A stretch of 24,000 bases of DNA, from assembly GCF_030159995.1 (NCBI RefSeq), contig NZ_BSNM01000014.1:421802-445801 (forward strand). The letters run 5' to 3'. A program made the translations under genes and the position numbers. Of the stretch, positions 1,717-14,240 are shown piece after piece (the first letter of the stretch is position 1; each line of letters begins with the position of its first letter). Origin of the DNA: Litoribrevibacter albus. Its GTDB lineage: Bacteria > Pseudomonadota > Gammaproteobacteria > Pseudomonadales > Litoribrevibacteraceae. The notes beneath the pieces were generated by a model that saw only the letters and a program-made list of their open reading frames with translations, had not been told where the DNA came from and ran no database searches.

Positions 1717-3027
1717 TCAAACCTTCATGTTGTTGAATTGAATGTCTTGAATCGCTCTATGTTTAAGTTTAAATCGCTGCCAAACCTTAACGTTAAGAAT
1801 GAGCAGAAAAGCACTGATAAGCAACAAAATAGCGCCGGCAATGCGAGAGACCATGGTTCCCAAAGGCGCAGATACCAAAACGGGTAACAGAACAAGATAT
1901 CCGTAGAACAACAGGCGGCCCTGCTTGGCTGAGATAAATTCAGACATTGAAGGCATCATGCTGATGGTATCCATAGATTTCATCGCCAGTTGCTGCAAAT
2001 TTAAAAATGCCAGGAACGGAACAATCTTCAATAACATTCCAAGAATAATCGATACCACAAAACCGAATACGAACATTAGCAAGGCTAAAATATGCATGTA
2101 AGGTTCAACACTGCTCTCCACCACAAAGGAAAGATCAAAGACCAGTATAGAGAGGAGCAACATAATCAAGCCTAAGCGCCAGAAATTAATGGTGGTATCC
2201 GCAACTTTTCTTCGACGTTGCGTTAATAAATACAACGCCGTACCGGCATACCCCACCAACGAAAGATGAAGGAAGAAAAATGCAGCCCAAATAAATGGTC
2301 GATGCTCATTAATCAGCCCTGCCGCCAACATAAGTAAGGCCAGAAAATGAAACATGGGAAGCCCACGCTTCAACCAATCAGGAAATTCTGGCGTAACATG
2401 AAACATCGGAATGACCTGAAAACTCACTCCGATAATGGTTAAAGAAACCCATCCCAACAAACCGAACACAAAGTGGATGTTTGTCAGTACTTTTCCAACC
2501 GATGATATTTCCAACCAATGATAACTGCCCAGTTGCCATAAGCCAGTGAGAACAGTCCCTACCAAACACAACCCGGCAAGCTTAATCGAAAATATCGACA
2601 CATTAGACTTACTATTAAAGAAGACGGTCACAATGCCTGACACCATCAACAGCAATGGAATTGCAATCAGACAGGTCGTAAGTAAAACAATGACTTTGGA
2701 TGGATACAGAAAGTTAATTGGGAAAAGAACTAGCCCGGTGGTGAGTAAGGCATGAAAAACAGTGGCCGAATGATCAACATAGGGAAACCCTCTACCACTT
2801 AACACCGGAAGCACCTGAGTAAGCGCCCCACACATAATCATCAAGATGAAGCCCAAGGTGAACACATGCGTAAGCGCGATAAGATCAGGCTGCCAACGAC
2901 TTAACCAGATATTGGGAAGGCATAATACAATAGCGCCCAAAGTGCTAAACACGGGGGCGGTAATAAAAAATCGCATCGGCGTCTGGAACGAAGGAATATT
3001 GTCAAAAGACAATCCGGAAAGATTCAT
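1717..3027 (-). CDS. Polytopic inner-membrane protein, NnrS-like (putative NO-stress-associated haem/copper membrane protein)
   Basis: 436 aa with about 12 hydrophobic segments and conserved His residues inside TM segments (LTHVFTLGF..., NIHFVFGLLGW..., MFHVTPEF). Family assignment rests on loose resemblance to NnrS and on its position downstream of hemerythrin and DUF2249 genes. The CDS is solid but the function is tentative. Confidence 0.6.
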   Translation of the reverse strand: MNLSGLSFDNIPSFQTPMRFFITAPVFSTLGAIVLCLPNIWLSRWQPDLIALTHVFTLGFILMIMCGALTQVLPVLSGRGFPYVDHSATVFHALLTTGLVLFPINFLYPSKVIVLLTTCLIAIPLLLMVSGIVTVFFNSKSNVSIFSIKLAGLCLVGTVLTGLWQLGSYHWLEISSVGKVLTNIHFVFGLLGWVSLTIIGVSFQVIPMFHVTPEFPDWLKRGLPMFHFLALLMLAAGLINEHRPFIWAAFFFLHLSLVGYAGTALYLLTQRRRKVADTTINFWRLGLIMLLLSILVFDLSFVVESSVEPYMHILALLMFVFGFVVSIILGMLLKIVPFLAFLNLQQLAMKSMDTISMMPSMSEFISAKQGRLLFYGYLVLLPVLVSAPLGTMVSRIAGAILLLISAFLLILNVKVWQRFKLKHRAIQDIQFNNMKV

Positions 3028-5451: not shown

Positions 5452-6678
5452 TCATTGATAACGATAACCGTCTCCTAGTGACTTGGTACGAAACGGTGAG
5501 AAGAACAAATGAACCTCTTCAACCGGTGAATATACATCCAACGATTTGGCATCTGCGATCTTCACGAGTTCCCTGTCTTTTTTAGTTCTCACAATCATGC
5601 TGTTTCTTTCACGATTGGACTTATCCTGAATCTGTTCTAACGAATCAAAAAGTTCAACATCAAGGTTTTCAGAGGTAATAACAAAATCCAATAACAAAGA
5701 CTTTCCGTTCTCAAACGTCGCCATAGCTGTAACCGGTTTGATTAACTTCTGTCCGTCCCAACGGCTCGGTTGCTCTGTCACCACGGAGGTTTCAGTAACC
5801 GAATTTCCCTTACCGACGATACCAAACAGCCAATCAAAGTTTTGCTGAATGACTTGATCAAAGGCTTTTTCGGTATTTACACGATGAAGCTGATCGTTAT
5901 AGCGTTTCTCAGAGGTAGGTGTCCAAACGAGCGGTTTTTCAACAACAGGGTATGTCTTGTTTTTTATAAAGCCATCTTCCTGATGAGCATACCGAATGGC
6001 CTGAGCCAATTGTTTCGGAAGTTCCTTCGCTATACGTTGGGACTCGGAGTCGAAGTATACCTGTGCGGCCGATAAAAACGCCTGATTTGAATCATAAACT
6101 TGTTGATCATGAGAAAGATTACCAGCGACTGCTCTTGGGTTTTCGTATTGGTTTTCACCAAAAGCAGGTCGGCCTGTAATCACCGCGTATTGATCCATCG
6201 TTTTATCCCAAGCTGGGTCATCCGGCATCAGTTTGGTAACGGTAAGATTCCTTCGAGTTTGAGCAGGTAATGAGTTAACGTCTTTGACAATGCAAAGATC
6301 GATTTTCATTTTAGTCTTGTCAGTGACTCCGTTCGTTAATAATCCCCGTTTCATTACATAATCAGGCTGCCCCTCCAATGGCGCAAACGTATAGGAATAA
6401 TTCCCATACTTACTGCCAAAGTAGTAAGTACCCGTTTCAATGGTTTTGGAATTGGTATACACGCCTGACGGTTTCAAACTACGAGGGTTTTTAAAATCGC
6501 CACAAACCACCCCATGAATGAAAATGGTTTGTTCTCGATCTAAAAAGTAATCAGGATAGCCCTCTACCGCTTGTGCAGTGGACACAACACAGGAGGCCGC
6601 CACACTACAAAAGGCTAAAACAGAAAGAGAAAAATACTTGGGTATTAAAGGCACAAAATATGTTTTGCGGATGGACAC
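5452..6678 (-). CDS. Secreted protein of unknown function
   Basis: 408 aa. GTG start at 6678 preceded by AAGGAGG (5-nt spacer). N-terminal signal peptide (...FSLSVLAFCSVAASCVVSTAQA/VEG). I recognise no family. Confidence 0.7.
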   Translation of the reverse strand: MSIRKTYFVPLIPKYFSLSVLAFCSVAASCVVSTAQAVEGYPDYFLDREQTIFIHGVVCGDFKNPRSLKPSGVYTNSKTIETGTYYFGSKYGNYSYTFAPLEGQPDYVMKRGLLTNGVTDKTKMKIDLCIVKDVNSLPAQTRRNLTVTKLMPDDPAWDKTMDQYAVITGRPAFGENQYENPRAVAGNLSHDQQVYDSNQAFLSAAQVYFDSESQRIAKELPKQLAQAIRYAHQEDGFIKNKTYPVVEKPLVWTPTSEKRYNDQLHRVNTEKAFDQVIQQNFDWLFGIVGKGNSVTETSVVTEQPSRWDGQKLIKPVTAMATFENGKSLLLDFVITSENLDVELFDSLEQIQDKSNRERNSMIVRTKKDRELVKIADAKSLDVYSPVEEVHLFFSPFRTKSLGDGYRYQ

Positions 6679-11732: not shown

Positions 11733-13043
11733 TTAAGAATATATAGAAGGAAATGTATTGGTTTTATTGGCTTTTTCTATCTCTTTTTGAAGTCTTGACC
11801 ATAGAGGTTTCAGTTGTTTTCTAATTGCACTACTTCCCATAATCTTAGCAGCTCTATGTCCATACGTAATAAAGTTTCTGTTACTAAGATGGGAATAGCG
11901 TTTGTAAAGCTTTTTTCTATAAATATCTTGAATAGGAATTCCTTGTTCCAACCGTAACAGGTTTTCTTTATTTCTTTTCTTCATTGCTTGCCTTACACCA
12001 GATTTCATTTTTCCTGAGTATCTGGCTAGAGCAGCGGACCTTAAGAGCTTACTGCGCCCATCAAATGTAAAACCGAGGTATTGCAGAGGTTTATTACTGA
12101 ACTGTGTTGTACCTTTTGTCCAAAATTTTCTAATTTCAGTTTTATCCGGATTGATTGATAATCGTAGGTCTTGGATTCTTAGACTCGCCCGAGATTCTAT
12201 TTCTTTAGAGACCTCTTCAGGAACTATAAAAAGGATGTCATCACAGTAGCGATAGTAATGACCACTACATAGGTTTATGACTTCTTTTGCCCATTTATCA
12301 AATTCCAGCATGTATATATTCGATAGTAATGCACTTAGAGGGGAGCCTTGAGGTATACCCTTACTTTGAGAGTTTGTTTTGATTATTCCAGAGCCTCTAA
12401 TTAGATTTCTAAATGTAGCTGCATCACATAATTTAAAACGCCCTTTTTTAGAATTATGTTTAGATATACCTAACTTACAGTACACTTCATCTAATGCAAC
12501 CTCAGAAAATTCAGTAAGACTTTTAAATACATTAAAGTGGTCATCGGGTAAATAGCTGCAGTCAATAACATTTGCCCATGCTTGTTTCAAAATTAGATGA
12601 TCTAAGTTGTCAAAGAAGCCAGTTACATCGAGGGCAACGGCGACACAGTTCATTTGCTTCTTAATATCTTCAAATGCTTGATTGGCAAACTCAATATTCC
12701 CCTTCCCCAGTGATCTAAACGCTAGAATACTTTCATTTAGGCCATATTCAGTGATTTTAGTTTCATAGCTCTTAGAGAGTTGATATGTGTAATAAGCATA
12801 AATGTGAGAGTCTATATGAGCAGCGTATTTGATAGGCCTGATCTTTGGCTTTTTTCGTATTGAACCTGTTTCATCTTTTGAAATTTTTACAGTTTCTATC
12901 TCGTAGCTAATTAAAGGATAAAAAGCATGCATGGATACACGCTTTTGACTCATAACGATGCTTTGTGCCTTGGAGTATCTGACAGGAGAGTCAAAGTGAA
13001 GGTATCGTCTGGTTTTAAACCATTTCGGGATGTTTTTAGGCAT
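11733..13043 (-). CDS. Stand-alone reverse transcriptase of the defence-associated UG/Abi type, DRT2 (UG2)-like
   Basis: 436 aa with the ordered RT palm motifs: KIRPIKYAAHIDSHIYAYY (1/2), VAVALDVTGFFDNLDH (A), GIPQGSPLSALLSNIYM (B), YYRYCDDILFIV (C; YCDD encoded at 12237-12248), LSINPDKTEI (D), LQYLGFTF (E), plus a basic C-terminal tail of about 100 aa. There is no maturase/endonuclease, nitrilase, kinase or other fused domain and no adjacent effector ORF. Subfamily assignment is by architecture and context, not by a database search. Confidence 0.85.
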   Translation of the reverse strand: MPKNIPKWFKTRRYLHFDSPVRYSKAQSIVMSQKRVSMHAFYPLISYEIETVKISKDETGSIRKKPKIRPIKYAAHIDSHIYAYYTYQLSKSYETKITEYGLNESILAFRSLGKGNIEFANQAFEDIKKQMNCVAVALDVTGFFDNLDHLILKQAWANVIDCSYLPDDHFNVFKSLTEFSEVALDEVYCKLGISKHNSKKGRFKLCDAATFRNLIRGSGIIKTNSQSKGIPQGSPLSALLSNIYMLEFDKWAKEVINLCSGHYYRYCDDILFIVPEEVSKEIESRASLRIQDLRLSINPDKTEIRKFWTKGTTQFSNKPLQYLGFTFDGRSKLLRSAALARYSGKMKSGVRQAMKKRNKENLLRLEQGIPIQDIYRKKLYKRYSHLSNRNFITYGHRAAKIMGSSAIRKQLKPLWSRLQKEIEKANKTNTFPSIYS

Positions 13044-13172
13044 GAAAAATCCATTTCTGCAAAACCTGAAGAGTAAGGATTGTGGCCATCCAATTTCTCT
13101 TCAGGCTTAGTTAACGTATTACTACGTCATCAGATAACTAAGTTACCCAGCCACACTAAGTCAGATATGATT

Positions 13173-13178
13173 TATAAT
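13173..13178 (+). promoter_or_regulatory. Perfect -10 hexamer TATAAT (half of a circularly permuted promoter)
   Basis: TATAAT was read directly at 13173-13178. The sequence 17 bp upstream in the genome is GCCACA (3/6 to the -35 consensus). Downstream come AGGAG (13190-13194) and ATG (13203). Confidence 0.4.
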
Positions 13179-13202
13179 ATCGTTATCACAGGAGTTACTA
13201 GT

Positions 13203-13283
13203 ATGAGTCTGATAGACCTATACAGAACAATTATCTGTGTCTGTTCAAGTGTCAACCATTGGTTAATACTTGACAGCATGTGA
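13203..13283 (+). other. 26-codon mini-ORF (linear form of the putative endless ORF)
   Basis: AGGAG lies 8 nt upstream of ATG 13203. It reads MSLIDLYRTIICVCSSVNHWLILDSM then TGA at 13281-13283, in the same frame as the 13077-13280 stop-free window. Confidence 0.35.
13270..13275 (+). promoter_or_regulatory. Perfect -35 hexamer TTGACA, located downstream of its putative -10 partner
   Basis: TTGACA was read directly at 13270-13275. No usable -10 follows it in the genome (CTCCCC at the 17-bp position). With a 120-nt period the spacer to the next TATAAT is exactly 17 bp. Confidence 0.4.
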
Positions 13284-13318
13284 TACCCCTTGCTCCCCAC
13301 TTCGAAACAAGCAATTTC

Positions 13319-13347
13319 AATCTAGCTTAAGAATATCACTATTTCAA
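13319..13347 (-). promoter_or_regulatory. Candidate sigma70 promoter for the ncRNA/RT transcript
   Basis: On the minus strand: TTGAAA (rc of 13342-13347), a 17-nt spacer, then TAGATT (rc of 13319-13324). This predicts a start near 13312. Confidence 0.35.
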
Positions 13348-13535
13348 TACTCTTTTGACTTGATACTCTGCCATAAATAGCGGCGTCTCTTTAGGTGTTT
13401 AAGTTTATTGCAGTCTATCGATAGCTAAATAAGTTTTCGATAAGCCTTTCACTTACAGATATTTCCCCTAAAAGTTCGTGCTAAGCCGTTTGAATTCAGA
13501 ACTCTTACAATTGTGATCTTTCCAAAAAACCAATA

Positions 13536-13572
13536 ATAGCCATTACCTATCACTTCCATAACAACTATCAAT
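13536..13572. promoter_or_regulatory. OxyR-type binding site upstream of ahpC
   Basis: ATAG-ccattac-CTAT-cacttcc-ATAA-caactat-CAAT follows the ATAG-N7-CTAT-N7-ATAG-N7-CTAT layout (14/16 core positions). It lies about 100 nt upstream of the ahpC ATG. Confidence 0.45.
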
Positions 13573-13673
13573 TTTTAATATAACCCTGTTTGAACAACAA
13601 TAGATTTGTCGATTCAAGAGATGGGCAACCAGCCCAAATCACACACAGATATATCCGAACAGAGGAAATTATT

Positions 13674-14240
13674 ATGACTGCTAAAGTGAACTCAAAAATT
13701 CTTCCATTCAACGCAACTGCTTTCCGTCAAGGTGAATTCGTTGAAGTAAGCGAAGCTGATGTACTAGGTAAATGGGCTATTTTCTTCTTCTATCCTGCTG
13801 ACTTCACTTTCGTATGTCCTACGGAACTAGGTGACTTGGCAGAACATTACGAAGAGCTTCAAAAGCTAGGTGTTGAAGTTTACTCAGTATCAACTGACAC
13901 ACACTTCACTCACAAAGCATGGCACGACAGCTCAGACACCATCGGCAAGATCAACTACTTCATGCTAGGTGACCAAACCGGAACCATCACCAACAACTTC
14001 GGTGTAATGCGTGAAGGTCAAGGTCTTGCAGATCGCGCAACCTTCTTGGTTGATCCTGAAGGTGTAATCCAGGCGATGGAAGTAACTGCAGAAGGCATCG
14101 GTCGTGATGCTGAAGATCTGCTTCGCAAAGTGAAAGCTGCTCAGTACGTTGCAGCGCACCCAGGTGAAGTTTGCCCTGCTAAGTGGAAAGAAGGTGAAGA
14201 AACATTGGCTCCTTCTCTGGATCTAGTAGGCAAAATCTAA
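13674..14240 (+). CDS. ahpC: Alkyl hydroperoxide reductase subunit C (2-Cys peroxiredoxin)
   Basis: 188 aa from ATG 13674 with RBS GAGGAA upstream. [16 protein letters not shown] (peroxidatic Cys) and GEVCPAKW (resolving Cys). The listed start at 13590 adds a non-homologous 28 aa. Confidence 0.95.

What the first reader, a model, noticed from the sequence alone, without database searches (positions are those of the whole stretch)
13161..13283. Circularly permuted consensus promoter, SD-ATG and a stop-free frame: a gene that exists only after 120-nt head-to-tail concatenation
All of this was read directly on the + strand, which is the sense of first-strand cDNA made from a minus-strand leader RNA. 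TATAAT is at 13173-13178, AGGAG at 13190-13194, and ATG at 13203 with an 8-nt spacer. That ATG lies in a frame that is stop-free from 13077 to 13280 and ends at TGA 13281-13283. A perfect TTGACA sits at 13270-13275, which is 97 nt downstream of the -10 and followed by no -10 of its own. If the segment is repeated with period L, the -35/-10 spacer equals L-103, so L=120 gives exactly 17 bp. Among periods giving a 16-18 bp spacer, only 120 is divisible by 3. A jump from about 13281 to about 13162 (shared GT dinucleotide) also deletes the only stop. The result is TTGACA-gcatgtcagatatgatt-TATAAT driving an endless ORF of the 40-aa repeat SDMIYNIVITGVTSMSLIDLYRTIICVCSSVNHWLILDSM. No minus-strand frame in the leader is comparably open. 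This is the logic reported in 2024 for Klebsiella DRT2, where rolling-circle reverse transcription creates the 'neo' gene. I recall that repeat as being of similar size, about 120 nt, but I cannot verify this from memory. Three independent constraints (promoter spacing, reading frame and stop removal) converge on one number, which is hard to dismiss as chance. It remains a prediction.
Basis: partly seen in the sequence, partly recalled or inferred. Interest (0 to 1): 0.95.

Follow-up and report, generated by a model that had tools for sequence, protein, structure and literature searches.

The report
Known DRT2 'neo' gene template

Summary
A 120-nt head-to-tail repeat of 13162-13281 gives TTGACA-17 bp-TATAAT, an SD-ATG, and one stop-free frame out of six. 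The ORF next to it on the minus strand (11733-13043) is a DRT2 reverse transcriptase (PADLOC E=2e-187, about 55% identical to the solved KpnDRT2). The leader on that strand (13312-13056) is the DRT2 non-coding RNA: a 5' hairpin, a 120-nt template and a pseudoknotted scaffold of the Rfam RT-12 type. In 58 of 81 DRT2 leaders I found the same permuted promoter, a repeat length divisible by 3 and an open concatemer frame; controls gave 2-8 of about 80. The geometry matches published KpnDRT2 exactly: 120 nt, hexamers 12 nt from each end, 91 bp apart in the genome. Supplementary Table S1 of Tang et al. 2024 lists this locus (Litoribrevibacter albus NBRC 110071, GLQ31952.1) with the same ncRNA, the same 120-nt neo repeat and the same Neo peptide. 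I found no experiment on this homolog. One deviation: the second jump motif (ACA-2) reads ACU, which leaves 2 nt of terminal microhomology. Verdict: real and correctly read, already known, low residual interest.

The parts
11733..13043 (-). DRT2 reverse transcriptase gene, 436 aa, with the YCDD active site (YRYCDDILF).
   Evidence: PADLOC Drt2 E=2.4e-187 over residues 3-424. Pfam RVT_1. E=2.5e-138 to KpnDRT2 PDB 9c0i. 100% identical to L. albus GLQ31952.1 / P0001. Residues W8, R12, Y14, H16 and D18, invariant in homologs, show the start is ATG 13043.
13056..13312 (-). DRT2 non-coding RNA, 257 nt: 5' handle, template and 3' scaffold.
   Evidence: Identical to the ncRNA string in Tang et al. Table S1. 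The fold has z = -3.6 against shuffles.
13319..13347 (-). Candidate sigma-70 promoter for the ncRNA-RT transcript (TTGAAA-17-TAGATT); it would place the transcription start near 13312.
   Evidence: Consensus scan, 9 of 12 matches. This is not above chance on its own; its position fits the published ncRNA 5' end.
13289..13311 (-). 5' handle hairpin (CUUGUUUC / GGAGCAAG).
   Evidence: Present in both the MFE and the centroid structure. A 5' handle hairpin is described for KpnDRT2 (PMC12039810).
13282..13287 (-). 5' arm of the 'template hairpin' (GGUAUC), which pairs with GAUAUU at 13176-13181 and so overlaps the -10 element.
   Evidence: MFE pairs. Wilkinson et al. describe pairing between the -10 region and the RNA upstream of the template.
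13279..13281 (-). ACA-1, the last three templated bases; TGT on the cDNA.
   Evidence: Sequence. 44 of 58 homolog junctions have the same geometry: 11 nt before the -10, and the -35 starting 12 nt from the repeat end. Of 57 leaders scored at that register, 41 carry ACA at both positions.
13162..13281 (+). neo repeat unit, 120 nt (40 codons). It is the template on the minus-strand RNA; the + strand is the sense of the first-strand cDNA and of the neo mRNA.
   Evidence: Identical to the 'neo' repeat in Tang et al. Table S1. One open frame of six in the concatemer.
13270..13275 (+). [quoted passage not shown]
   Evidence: Same position in most homologs and in KpnDRT2.
13173..13178 (+). -10 element TATAAT, starting at position 12 of the repeat.
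   Evidence: Matches the KpnDRT2 description.
13190..13205 (+). Shine-Dalgarno AGGAG (13190-13194) and neo start codon ATG (13203-13205).
   Evidence: The Table S1 Neo peptide begins MSLIDLYRT, that is, at this ATG.
13164..13168 (-). Primer-binding site AUAUC, templating the DNA primer GATAT.
   Evidence: The same GATAT primer is reported for KpnDRT2. The repeat starts CAGATAT. 7 of 57 homolog leaders have GATAT at these positions; others have related pentamers.
13159..13161 (-). ACA-2 position, the landing site of the template jump. It reads ACU here, not ACA.
   Evidence: The Rfam RT-12 alignment puts consensus UAACA opposite UGACU. See also alignment A2 and the homolog statistics.
13056..13163 (-). 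3' scaffold of the ncRNA (Rfam RT-12-like): two hairpins plus a long hairpin whose loop forms a pseudoknot.
   Evidence: RT-12 at 38.5 bits, E=7e-5, below the gathering score of 44.2. RT-12 is at or above gathering in 15 of 19 homolog loci at the same position. Covariation: 95% of cells paired, 13 of 18 pairs with changes on both sides.
13150..13154 (-). Pseudoknot 5' strand GUGGC, pairing with GCCAC at 13082-13086.
   Evidence: The pseudoknot helix is 100% paired in 36 sequences and 4 of its 5 pairs covary. The window carries U-A where the consensus has C-G.
13082..13086 (-). Pseudoknot 3' strand GCCAC, in the loop of the inner hairpin GGAU/AUCC (13077-13091).
13056..13059 (-). 3' end of the ncRNA (…GCAGA). 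The CA at 13059-13058 equals the first two bases of the cDNA repeat and can pair with the last template bases UG (13163-13162).
   Evidence: The MFE pairs CAGA with UCUG at 13165-13162. In homologs the tail dinucleotide tracks the first two repeat bases: CA with CA in 12 of 12; TA with CUA or GCUA in 20 of 26. Covalent priming from the RNA 3' end is reported for KpnDRT2.

Best explanation
The segment 13162-13281 is the template region of the non-coding RNA of a DRT2 (UG2-type) antiphage reverse-transcriptase system in Litoribrevibacter albus.

Shown here by sequence and comparison:
- A minus-strand transcript (about 13312 to 13056, continuing into the RT gene) carries a 5' hairpin, a 120-nt template and a pseudoknotted 3' scaffold.
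- The template, read as cDNA, holds a -10 element 12 nt from its start and a -35 element 12 nt from its end.
- It also holds an SD-ATG and a frame whose only stop lies just past the repeat boundary.

Inferred by homology with KpnDRT2 (Tang et al. 2024; Wilkinson et al. 2024):
- The RT binds the scaffold.
- The RNA 3' end primes DNA synthesis at AUAUC (13168-13164).
- The RT copies up to ACA-1 (13281).
- The cDNA 3' end (…GT) re-anneals at the ACA-2 position (13161-13160) and the cycle repeats, giving 120-nt head-to-tail cDNA.
- On phage infection the cDNA becomes double-stranded.
- Each junction then forms TTGACA-17-TATAAT, and sigma-70 RNA polymerase transcribes a repetitive mRNA.
- Translation from ATG 13203 yields an endless 40-aa-repeat, hydrophobic Neo protein that arrests growth (abortive infection).
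For: - RT identity: PADLOC Drt2 E=2.4e-187; E=2.5e-138 to the solved KpnDRT2.
- ncRNA scaffold: Rfam RT-12 hit on the correct strand, directly abutting the template. The same family is at or above gathering in 15 of 19 homolog loci at the same relative position. The pseudoknot and stems are supported by covariation and fitted by the window sequence.
- Concatemer logic verified.
- Geometry identical to the published KpnDRT2 description.
- Conservation: 58 of 81 DRT2 leaders show a permuted promoter (at least 5 of 6 in each hexamer) with a 17-bp spacer, a period divisible by 3 and an open frame; opposite-strand, flanking and shuffled controls give 2-8 of about 80. Periods run from 99 to 141, all multiples of 3, with 120 the commonest.
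- Neo peptides of the closest clade share DM.YNI..(T/S)GV…LDS and the same reading frame relative to the hexamers.
- Chance for this leader is about 4e-4, or about 3e-6 with the SD-ATG.
- Tang et al. Table S1 lists this locus with the same ncRNA, neo repeat and Neo peptide, in a row whose last column reads TRUE.
Against: - No cDNA, RNA or defence data exist for this organism. I found no mention of it in the main text of Tang et al. or in the held supplements of Wilkinson et al..
- ACA-2 reads ACU, so the terminal microhomology is 2 nt rather than 3. ACA equals ACA in 41 of 57 homologs at the same register. Tang et al. report loss of defence when ACA homology is disrupted.
- The Rfam RT-12 score (38.5) is below the gathering score (44.2). 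The closest clade also scores low: 44-53 bits for L006, L007 and L001, while L002, L003, L016 and L034 do not reach gathering.
- The ncRNA promoter match is weak.
Confidence: 0.88

Rival explanations
1. It is a DRT2 locus, but a weakened or inactive one. The A-to-U change in ACA-2 (ACU at 13161-13159) impairs the template jump, so mostly single 120-nt cDNAs would be made, and the promoter and ORF features would be inherited relics.
For: ACA-2 is ACU. 41 of 57 homologs keep ACA=ACA, and variants usually change on both sides together, for example GCA/GCA, AUA/AUA and AUU/AUU. Tang et al. report complete loss of defence in mutants that disrupt ACA homology.
Against: The RT ORF is intact, with YCDD and all residues invariant in homologs. 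Both hexamers are perfect, the frame is open and the scaffold pairs are intact, which argues for ongoing selection. The two 3'-terminal cDNA bases still pair (G:C, T:A), and the base at -4 also pairs (sequence). One other leader, L051, has ACA/ACU at the canonical register, though its junction register is uncertain.
Confidence: 0.1
2. A conventional small gene on the + strand (ATG 13203 to TGA 13283, 26 aa, or the 67-aa TTG ORF 13080-13283) is expressed directly from the chromosome without any reverse transcription.
For: An SD-ATG with good spacing and an open frame exist in the genomic arrangement.
Against: No + strand promoter precedes it in the genome; the -10 has no -35 upstream and the -35 lies downstream. 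The ORF lies wholly inside a structured antisense ncRNA. Conservation in homologs is of the permuted arrangement and of a period divisible by 3, which a linear gene would not need.
Confidence: 0.01
3. The permuted promoter, period and open frame are a chance coincidence in an AT-rich intergenic region.
For: The region is AT-rich (GC 0.36-0.39), which favours TATAAT-like strings.
Against: Simulated probability of 4e-4 to 3e-6. The same arrangement recurs in 58 of 81 independent DRT2 leaders against 2-8 in controls. The geometry is identical to KpnDRT2.
Confidence: 0.01

Closest known systems
Klebsiella pneumoniae DRT2 (KpnDRT2) and its neo gene (Tang et al. 2024, PMC11100668; Wilkinson et al. 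2024, PMC12039810; PDB 9c0i)
   Same: A single RT gene preceded on the same strand by an ncRNA with a 5' hairpin, a template and a pseudoknotted scaffold. 120-nt repeat; TATAAT 12 nt from the 5' end and TTGACA 12 nt from the 3' end; 91 bp between them in the genome and 17 bp after concatenation. SD-ATG just after the -10, one stop-free frame, GATAT primer site, ACA-1.
   Different: The RT is only about 55% identical. The ncRNA is 257 nt against 280-281 nt. ACA-2 is ACU. The Neo sequence is unrelated outside the residues fixed by the promoter and ACA elements. The host is a marine Oceanospirillales-type bacterium. This homolog is untested experimentally.
The entry for this same locus in Tang et al. 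2024 Supplementary Table S1 (L. albus NBRC 110071, BSNM01000014.1:433534-434733, GLQ31952.1)
   Same: Identical ncRNA (13312-13056), identical neo repeat (13162-13281) and identical Neo peptide.
   Different: Nothing in the sequence differs. The table uses the truncated 399-aa GenBank RT, and its ncRNA 3' end may run 2 nt past the true RNA end.
Rfam RF03016, RT-12 RNA
   Same: It covers the 3' scaffold from 2 nt upstream of ACA-2 to the ncRNA 3' end, including the GCGGC/GCCGC pseudoknot partners.
   Different: The window scores 38.5 bits, below the gathering score of 44.2. The Rfam model does not include the template or the 5' handle.
DRT10 and telomerase-like tandem-repeat synthesis (PMC12632851)
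   Same: An ncRNA-templated, processive tandem-repeat DNA made by a defence RT (abstract seen).
   Different: DRT10 is protein-primed and works with a SLATT effector. From that abstract, its product is not described as a gene with a promoter and ORF. The RT here scores as Drt2, not as another DRT class.
Junction promoters of circularised IS and transposon intermediates
   Same: A -35 and a -10 element that are separated in the linear form are brought to a functional spacing only when the ends are joined; both DRT2 papers draw this analogy.
   Different: There the joining is by DNA circularisation during transposition, not by reverse transcription, and no endless ORF results.

Membership tests
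DRT2 (UG2) defence system with neo gene synthesis | DRT2-clade reverse transcriptase with an intact YxDD active site and no extra domains | tested here: met
   PADLOC Drt2 E=2.4e-187 with full-length coverage. KpnDRT2 structures are the best PDB hits, E about 1e-138. YRYCDD is present, as are all columns invariant in 25 homologs.
DRT2 (UG2) defence system with neo gene synthesis | ncRNA directly upstream on the RT strand with a pseudoknotted 3' scaffold (RT-12 type) | tested here: met
   RT-12 hit at 13056-13163 (-), E=7e-5, though below the gathering score. The window fits helices supported by covariation, including the pseudoknot (100% paired, 4 of 5 pairs covary). Homolog loci hit RT-12 at the same relative position.
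DRT2 (UG2) defence system with neo gene synthesis | Template flanked by matching ACA-1 and ACA-2 trinucleotides | tested here: inconclusive
   ACA-1 is present (13281-13279). The ACA-2 position reads ACU (13161-13159), so only 2 terminal nt match. 41 of 57 homologs have ACA/ACA.
DRT2 (UG2) defence system with neo gene synthesis | Repeat length divisible by three | tested here: met
   120 nt from ACA-1 (included) to the base before ACA-2. Homologs have 99-141 nt, all multiples of 3.
DRT2 (UG2) defence system with neo gene synthesis | Permuted -10 and -35 elements that form a 17-bp-spaced sigma-70 promoter only across the repeat junction | tested here: met
   Perfect TATAAT and TTGACA, each 12 nt from a repeat end, with a 17-bp spacer in the concatemer. 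Conserved in 58 of 81 leaders against 2-8 in controls.
DRT2 (UG2) defence system with neo gene synthesis | A single stop-free frame through the junction, with an RBS and a start codon downstream of the -10 | tested here: met
   One of six frames is open. AGGAG at 13190, ATG at 13203.
DRT2 (UG2) defence system with neo gene synthesis | Primer-binding site next to the template 3' end, used by the ncRNA 3' end | tested here: met
   The repeat starts CAGATAT, so the PBS AUAUC (primer GATAT) is as in KpnDRT2. The ncRNA tail dinucleotide CA matches the first two repeat bases, and tail and repeat start change together across homologs. This is sequence evidence only.
DRT2 (UG2) defence system with neo gene synthesis | Production of concatemeric cDNA and junction-spanning neo mRNA | not testable with these tools
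   Needs DNA and RNA sequencing of cells that express the locus.
DRT2 (UG2) defence system with neo gene synthesis | Phage defence by abortive infection, and Neo toxicity that depends on repeat number | not testable with these tools
   Needs plaque and growth assays. I found no data for this homolog.
Retron | msr/msd ncRNA with flanking inverted repeats and a 2'-5' branched msDNA; retron-clade RT | tested here: not met
   The best retron-type RT model scores E=4e-12, against 2e-187 for Drt2. The ncRNA matches RT-12, and no other Rfam family matched above chance.

The most novel reading that the evidence does not exclude
The most novel reading my evidence leaves open concerns the degenerate landing motif. 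This natural DRT2 may work with ACU instead of ACA, so that two terminal base pairs are enough for the programmed template jump, or the jump is deliberately made less efficient as a way of tuning it. That would refine the published ACA-1/ACA-2 microhomology model. A less likely variant is that the jump uses another register: every junction between 13156 and 13162 keeps the 120-nt period, the 17-bp spacer and the open frame.
Probability: 0.35. Interest if true: 0.25.

Novelty: already known. Interest (0 to 1): 0.15.

Why it matters
[quoted passage not shown] This window holds a clean natural example, and an unaided reading of the raw sequence recovered the mechanism, the period and the junction correctly. 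That is a useful validation of the scan. For biology the value is small, because the mechanism, its conservation and this specific locus are already published. What remains is a natural ACA-2 variant (ACU) that could serve as a ready-made test of how much microhomology the template jump needs, plus a correction of the RT start in the GenBank annotation.

Tried and rejected
- Alternative junction picked by maximising microhomology: ACA at 13153-55 and 13273-75, giving the unit 13156-13275. Rejected because it lies inside the pseudoknot strand GUGGC (13154-13150) and disagrees with the register in 44 of 58 homologs; it gives the same 120-nt period anyway.
- Conventional + strand small ORF. Rejected because it has no upstream promoter in the linear arrangement.
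- Chance. Rejected.
- Codon-position variability in the neo frame of the closest clade gave only a weak signal: position 2 is less variable, 0.77 against 1.07 and 1.13 bits. I do not use it as evidence.
- Defence-island context: none found. The neighbours are housekeeping-type genes (RmuC, an NHL-repeat protein, a saccharopine-dehydrogenase-like protein, AhpC/AhpF, an AraC regulator, penicillin amidase) and have no PADLOC hits.
- The supplements of Wilkinson et al. do not mention this organism.
- I did not predict the Neo structure. The tool only accepts sequences present in the window, and a single 40-aa repeat without an alignment would be uninformative.
- I did not resolve the SL2 element of Tang et al. 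in this RNA.

Full report
**1. The observation**

| Feature | Coordinates (+ strand) |
|---|---|
| TATAAT | 13173-13178 |
| AGGAG | 13190-13194 |
| ATG | 13203-13205 |
| TTGACA | 13270-13275 |
| TGA | 13281-13283 |

- A TAA at 13074-13076 bounds the frame upstream. It is therefore stop-free from 13077 to 13280, and the ORF listing reports 13080..13283.
- Repeating 13162-13281 head-to-tail gives TTGACA-GCATGTCAGATATGATT-TATAAT.
- Exactly one of six frames is open, encoding (S)DMIYNIVITGVTSMSLIDLYRTIICVCSSVNHWLILDSM. It is 52% hydrophobic (A, V, I, L, M, F, W, C).
- The consensus scan finds no + strand promoter after the TTGACA in the linear genome.
- Chance: of 400,000 random leaders of the same dinucleotide make-up, 173 met perfect hexamers, a 17-bp spacer, a period divisible by 3 and an open frame. 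Only 1 also had an in-frame SD-ATG.

**2. What surrounds it**

- The minus-strand ORF 11733-13043 (436 aa) is a DRT2 reverse transcriptase. It scores PADLOC Drt2 E=2.4e-187 and Pfam RVT_1. Its best solved relatives are the KpnDRT2 cryo-EM structures (9c0i, E=2.5e-138).
- It is 100% identical to a hypothetical protein of Litoribrevibacter albus. The next relative is only 62% identical.
- The leader on the RT strand matches Rfam RT-12 at 13056-13163 (38.5 bits, E=7e-5, gathering score 44.2), ending exactly where the proposed template begins.
- RT-12 is at or above its gathering score in 15 of 19 homologous DRT2 loci, always starting 2 nt upstream of the ACA-2 position. The clade closest to the window scores lowest, 44-53 bits.
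- On an alignment of 36 scaffolds, the outer stem, inner hairpin and pseudoknot are 95% paired, with compensatory changes at 13 of 18 pairs. The pseudoknot itself is 100% paired and 4 of its 5 pairs covary. Slid controls drop to 34-53% paired.
- The window carries GUGGC (13154-13150) and GCCAC (13086-13082), a compensated version of the consensus GCGGC/GCCGC.
- The 257-nt RNA folds better than shuffles (z = -3.6). The fold has a 5' hairpin (13311-13289) and a helix between GGUAUC (13287-13282) and GAUAUU (13181-13176). That helix corresponds to the 'template hairpin' between the -10 region and the RNA upstream of the template described by Wilkinson et al..
- A weak minus-strand promoter match (TTGAAA-17-TAGATT, 13347-13319) would start transcription near 13312.

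**3. Comparison across relatives**

I fetched 80 DRT2 loci from one genome per species and scanned 420 nt upstream of each RT in the cDNA sense.

- I required a -10 followed downstream by a -35 (at least 5 of 6 matches each). The period that gives a 17-bp spacer had to be divisible by 3, and the concatemer had to have an open frame. 58 of 81 leaders qualify.
- The same test gives 8 of 81 on the opposite strand, 4-8 of about 79 in flanking regions and 2-7 of 81 in dinucleotide shuffles.
- Periods are 99, 105, 108, 111, 114, 117, 120 (the commonest, 20 loci), 123, 126, 129, 132 and 141.
- In 44 of 58 loci the junction lies 11 nt before the -10, and the -35 starts 12 nt from the repeat end. 36 loci have 3 nt of microhomology at the best-scoring junction and 18 have more, so 54 of 58 have at least 3 nt.
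- Where ACA is not used, both motifs tend to change together: GCA/GCA, AUA/AUA and AUU/AUU.
- Neo peptides of the nearest clade share DM.YNI..(S/T)GV…LDS. The YN and LD residues come from TAT-AAT and (C)TT-GAC read in the same frame.

**4. Mechanism**

The sequence shows the parts. The process is inferred from KpnDRT2.

- The published facts are as follows. A 280/281-nt ncRNA carries a 120-nt template. Programmed template jumping between ACA-1 and ACA-2 gives concatemeric cDNA.
- Double-stranded product appears on phage infection. A promoter is reconstituted across the junction, from TATAAT 12 nt from the 5' end and TTGACA 12 nt from the 3' end. These lie 91 bp apart in the genome and 17 bp apart after concatenation.
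- An RBS and start codon follow the -10. The stop-less neo ORF causes growth arrest.
- The window reproduces each of these numbers exactly.
- Wilkinson et al. also found that the ncRNA 3' end is covalently extended by a DNA primer, GATAT, templated at a primer-binding site near the template 3' end.
- Here the repeat begins CAGATAT. The ncRNA ends …GCAGA, whose CA matches the first two repeat bases and can pair with the last template bases.
- Across homologs the tail dinucleotide tracks the first two repeat bases: CA with CA in 12 of 12, and UA with TA in 20 of 26.

**5. Is it known?**

Yes, down to the locus.

- Supplementary Table S1 of Tang et al. (PMC11100668) has a row for Litoribrevibacter albus NBRC 110071, BSNM01000014.1:433534-434733 (-), GLQ31952.1.
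- Its ncRNA string maps to window 13312-13056, and its neo repeat to 13162-13281.
- Its Neo peptide is MSLIDLYRTIICVCSSVNHWLILDSM followed by SDMIYNIVITGVTS… The row's last column reads TRUE.

**6. Deviations and caveats**

- The ACA-2 position reads ACU (13161-13159). After the jump only the two 3'-terminal cDNA bases pair (plus the base at -4), against three in 41 of 57 homologs at the same register.
- Tang et al. report that disrupting ACA homology abolishes defence. A weakened system is therefore a real, if minor, possibility.
- Against decay: the RT is intact, both hexamers are perfect, the frame is open and the scaffold helices are intact.
- Every junction from 13156 to 13162 preserves the period, the spacer and the open frame. 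The prediction is therefore robust to small errors in the jump site.

**7. Verdict**

The novelty class is 'already known', so residual interest is low. What remains is a natural ACA-2 variant and an annotation correction.

Noticed in passing
window 13159-13161 (minus strand): The landing motif for the template jump (ACA-2) reads ACU instead of the conserved ACA, leaving only GT as terminal microhomology with ACA-1. 41 of 57 homolog leaders have ACA/ACA. One other, L051, shows ACA/ACU, but its register is uncertain.
   Followed up: partly
window 12933-13043 (minus strand): The GenBank protein GLQ31952.1 (399 aa) starts at MHAFYP…, 37 codons downstream of ATG 13043. The longer ORF includes the N-terminal W-x3-R-x-Y-x-H-x-D residues that are invariant in 25 DRT2 homologs and align to KpnDRT2 from residue 7. 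The deposited start is therefore almost certainly too short.
   Followed up: yes
window 13056-13059 with 13162-13165; loci L001-L070: The ncRNA tail after GGUUU(U)G ends in CA or (C)UA, and this dinucleotide tracks the first two bases of the cDNA repeat (CA or TA) across homologs. This fits priming from the RNA 3' end as reported for KpnDRT2. The 3' end in the published table (13056) may be 2 nt too long; the true end may be 13058.
   Followed up: partly
window 13077-13161 (+ strand): The neo reading frame stays open for a further 84 nt upstream of the template, into the scaffold region, which gives the 67-aa mechanical ORF 13080-13283. I know of no role for this and take it as probably chance.
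   Followed up: no
window 12001-14000: GC content dips to 0.36-0.39 over the RT gene and the ncRNA, against 0.43 for the whole window. The flanks are housekeeping-type genes (a saccharopine-dehydrogenase-like gene, then ahpC-ahpF). This suggests a solitary, horizontally acquired DRT2 insertion rather than a defence island.
   Followed up: partly
window 12921-12946 (minus strand): A terminator-like hairpin (AAAAGCGTGTATCCATGCATGCTTTT followed by a T-rich run) lies about 100 nt inside the RT coding sequence. The region has 2 such sites against 0.4 expected. It could be chance, or it could relate to how the ncRNA and the RT mRNA are separated, a step that Tang et al. describe as unknown.
   Followed up: no
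window 1717-3027 and 5452-6678 (minus strand): Two sizeable ORFs (436 and 408 aa) have no Pfam match. The first is a very hydrophobic, polytopic membrane-type protein, which explains the strong AT skew (0.34) at 2001-3000.
   Followed up: partly
locus L017 3389-3729 (minus strand): A group II intron (domains D1-D4) lies just downstream of the DRT2 gene in a Sedimenticola MAG, and tRNA genes lie next to DRT2 in L019 and L054. These may be insertion hot spots for DRT2 cassettes.
   Followed up: no
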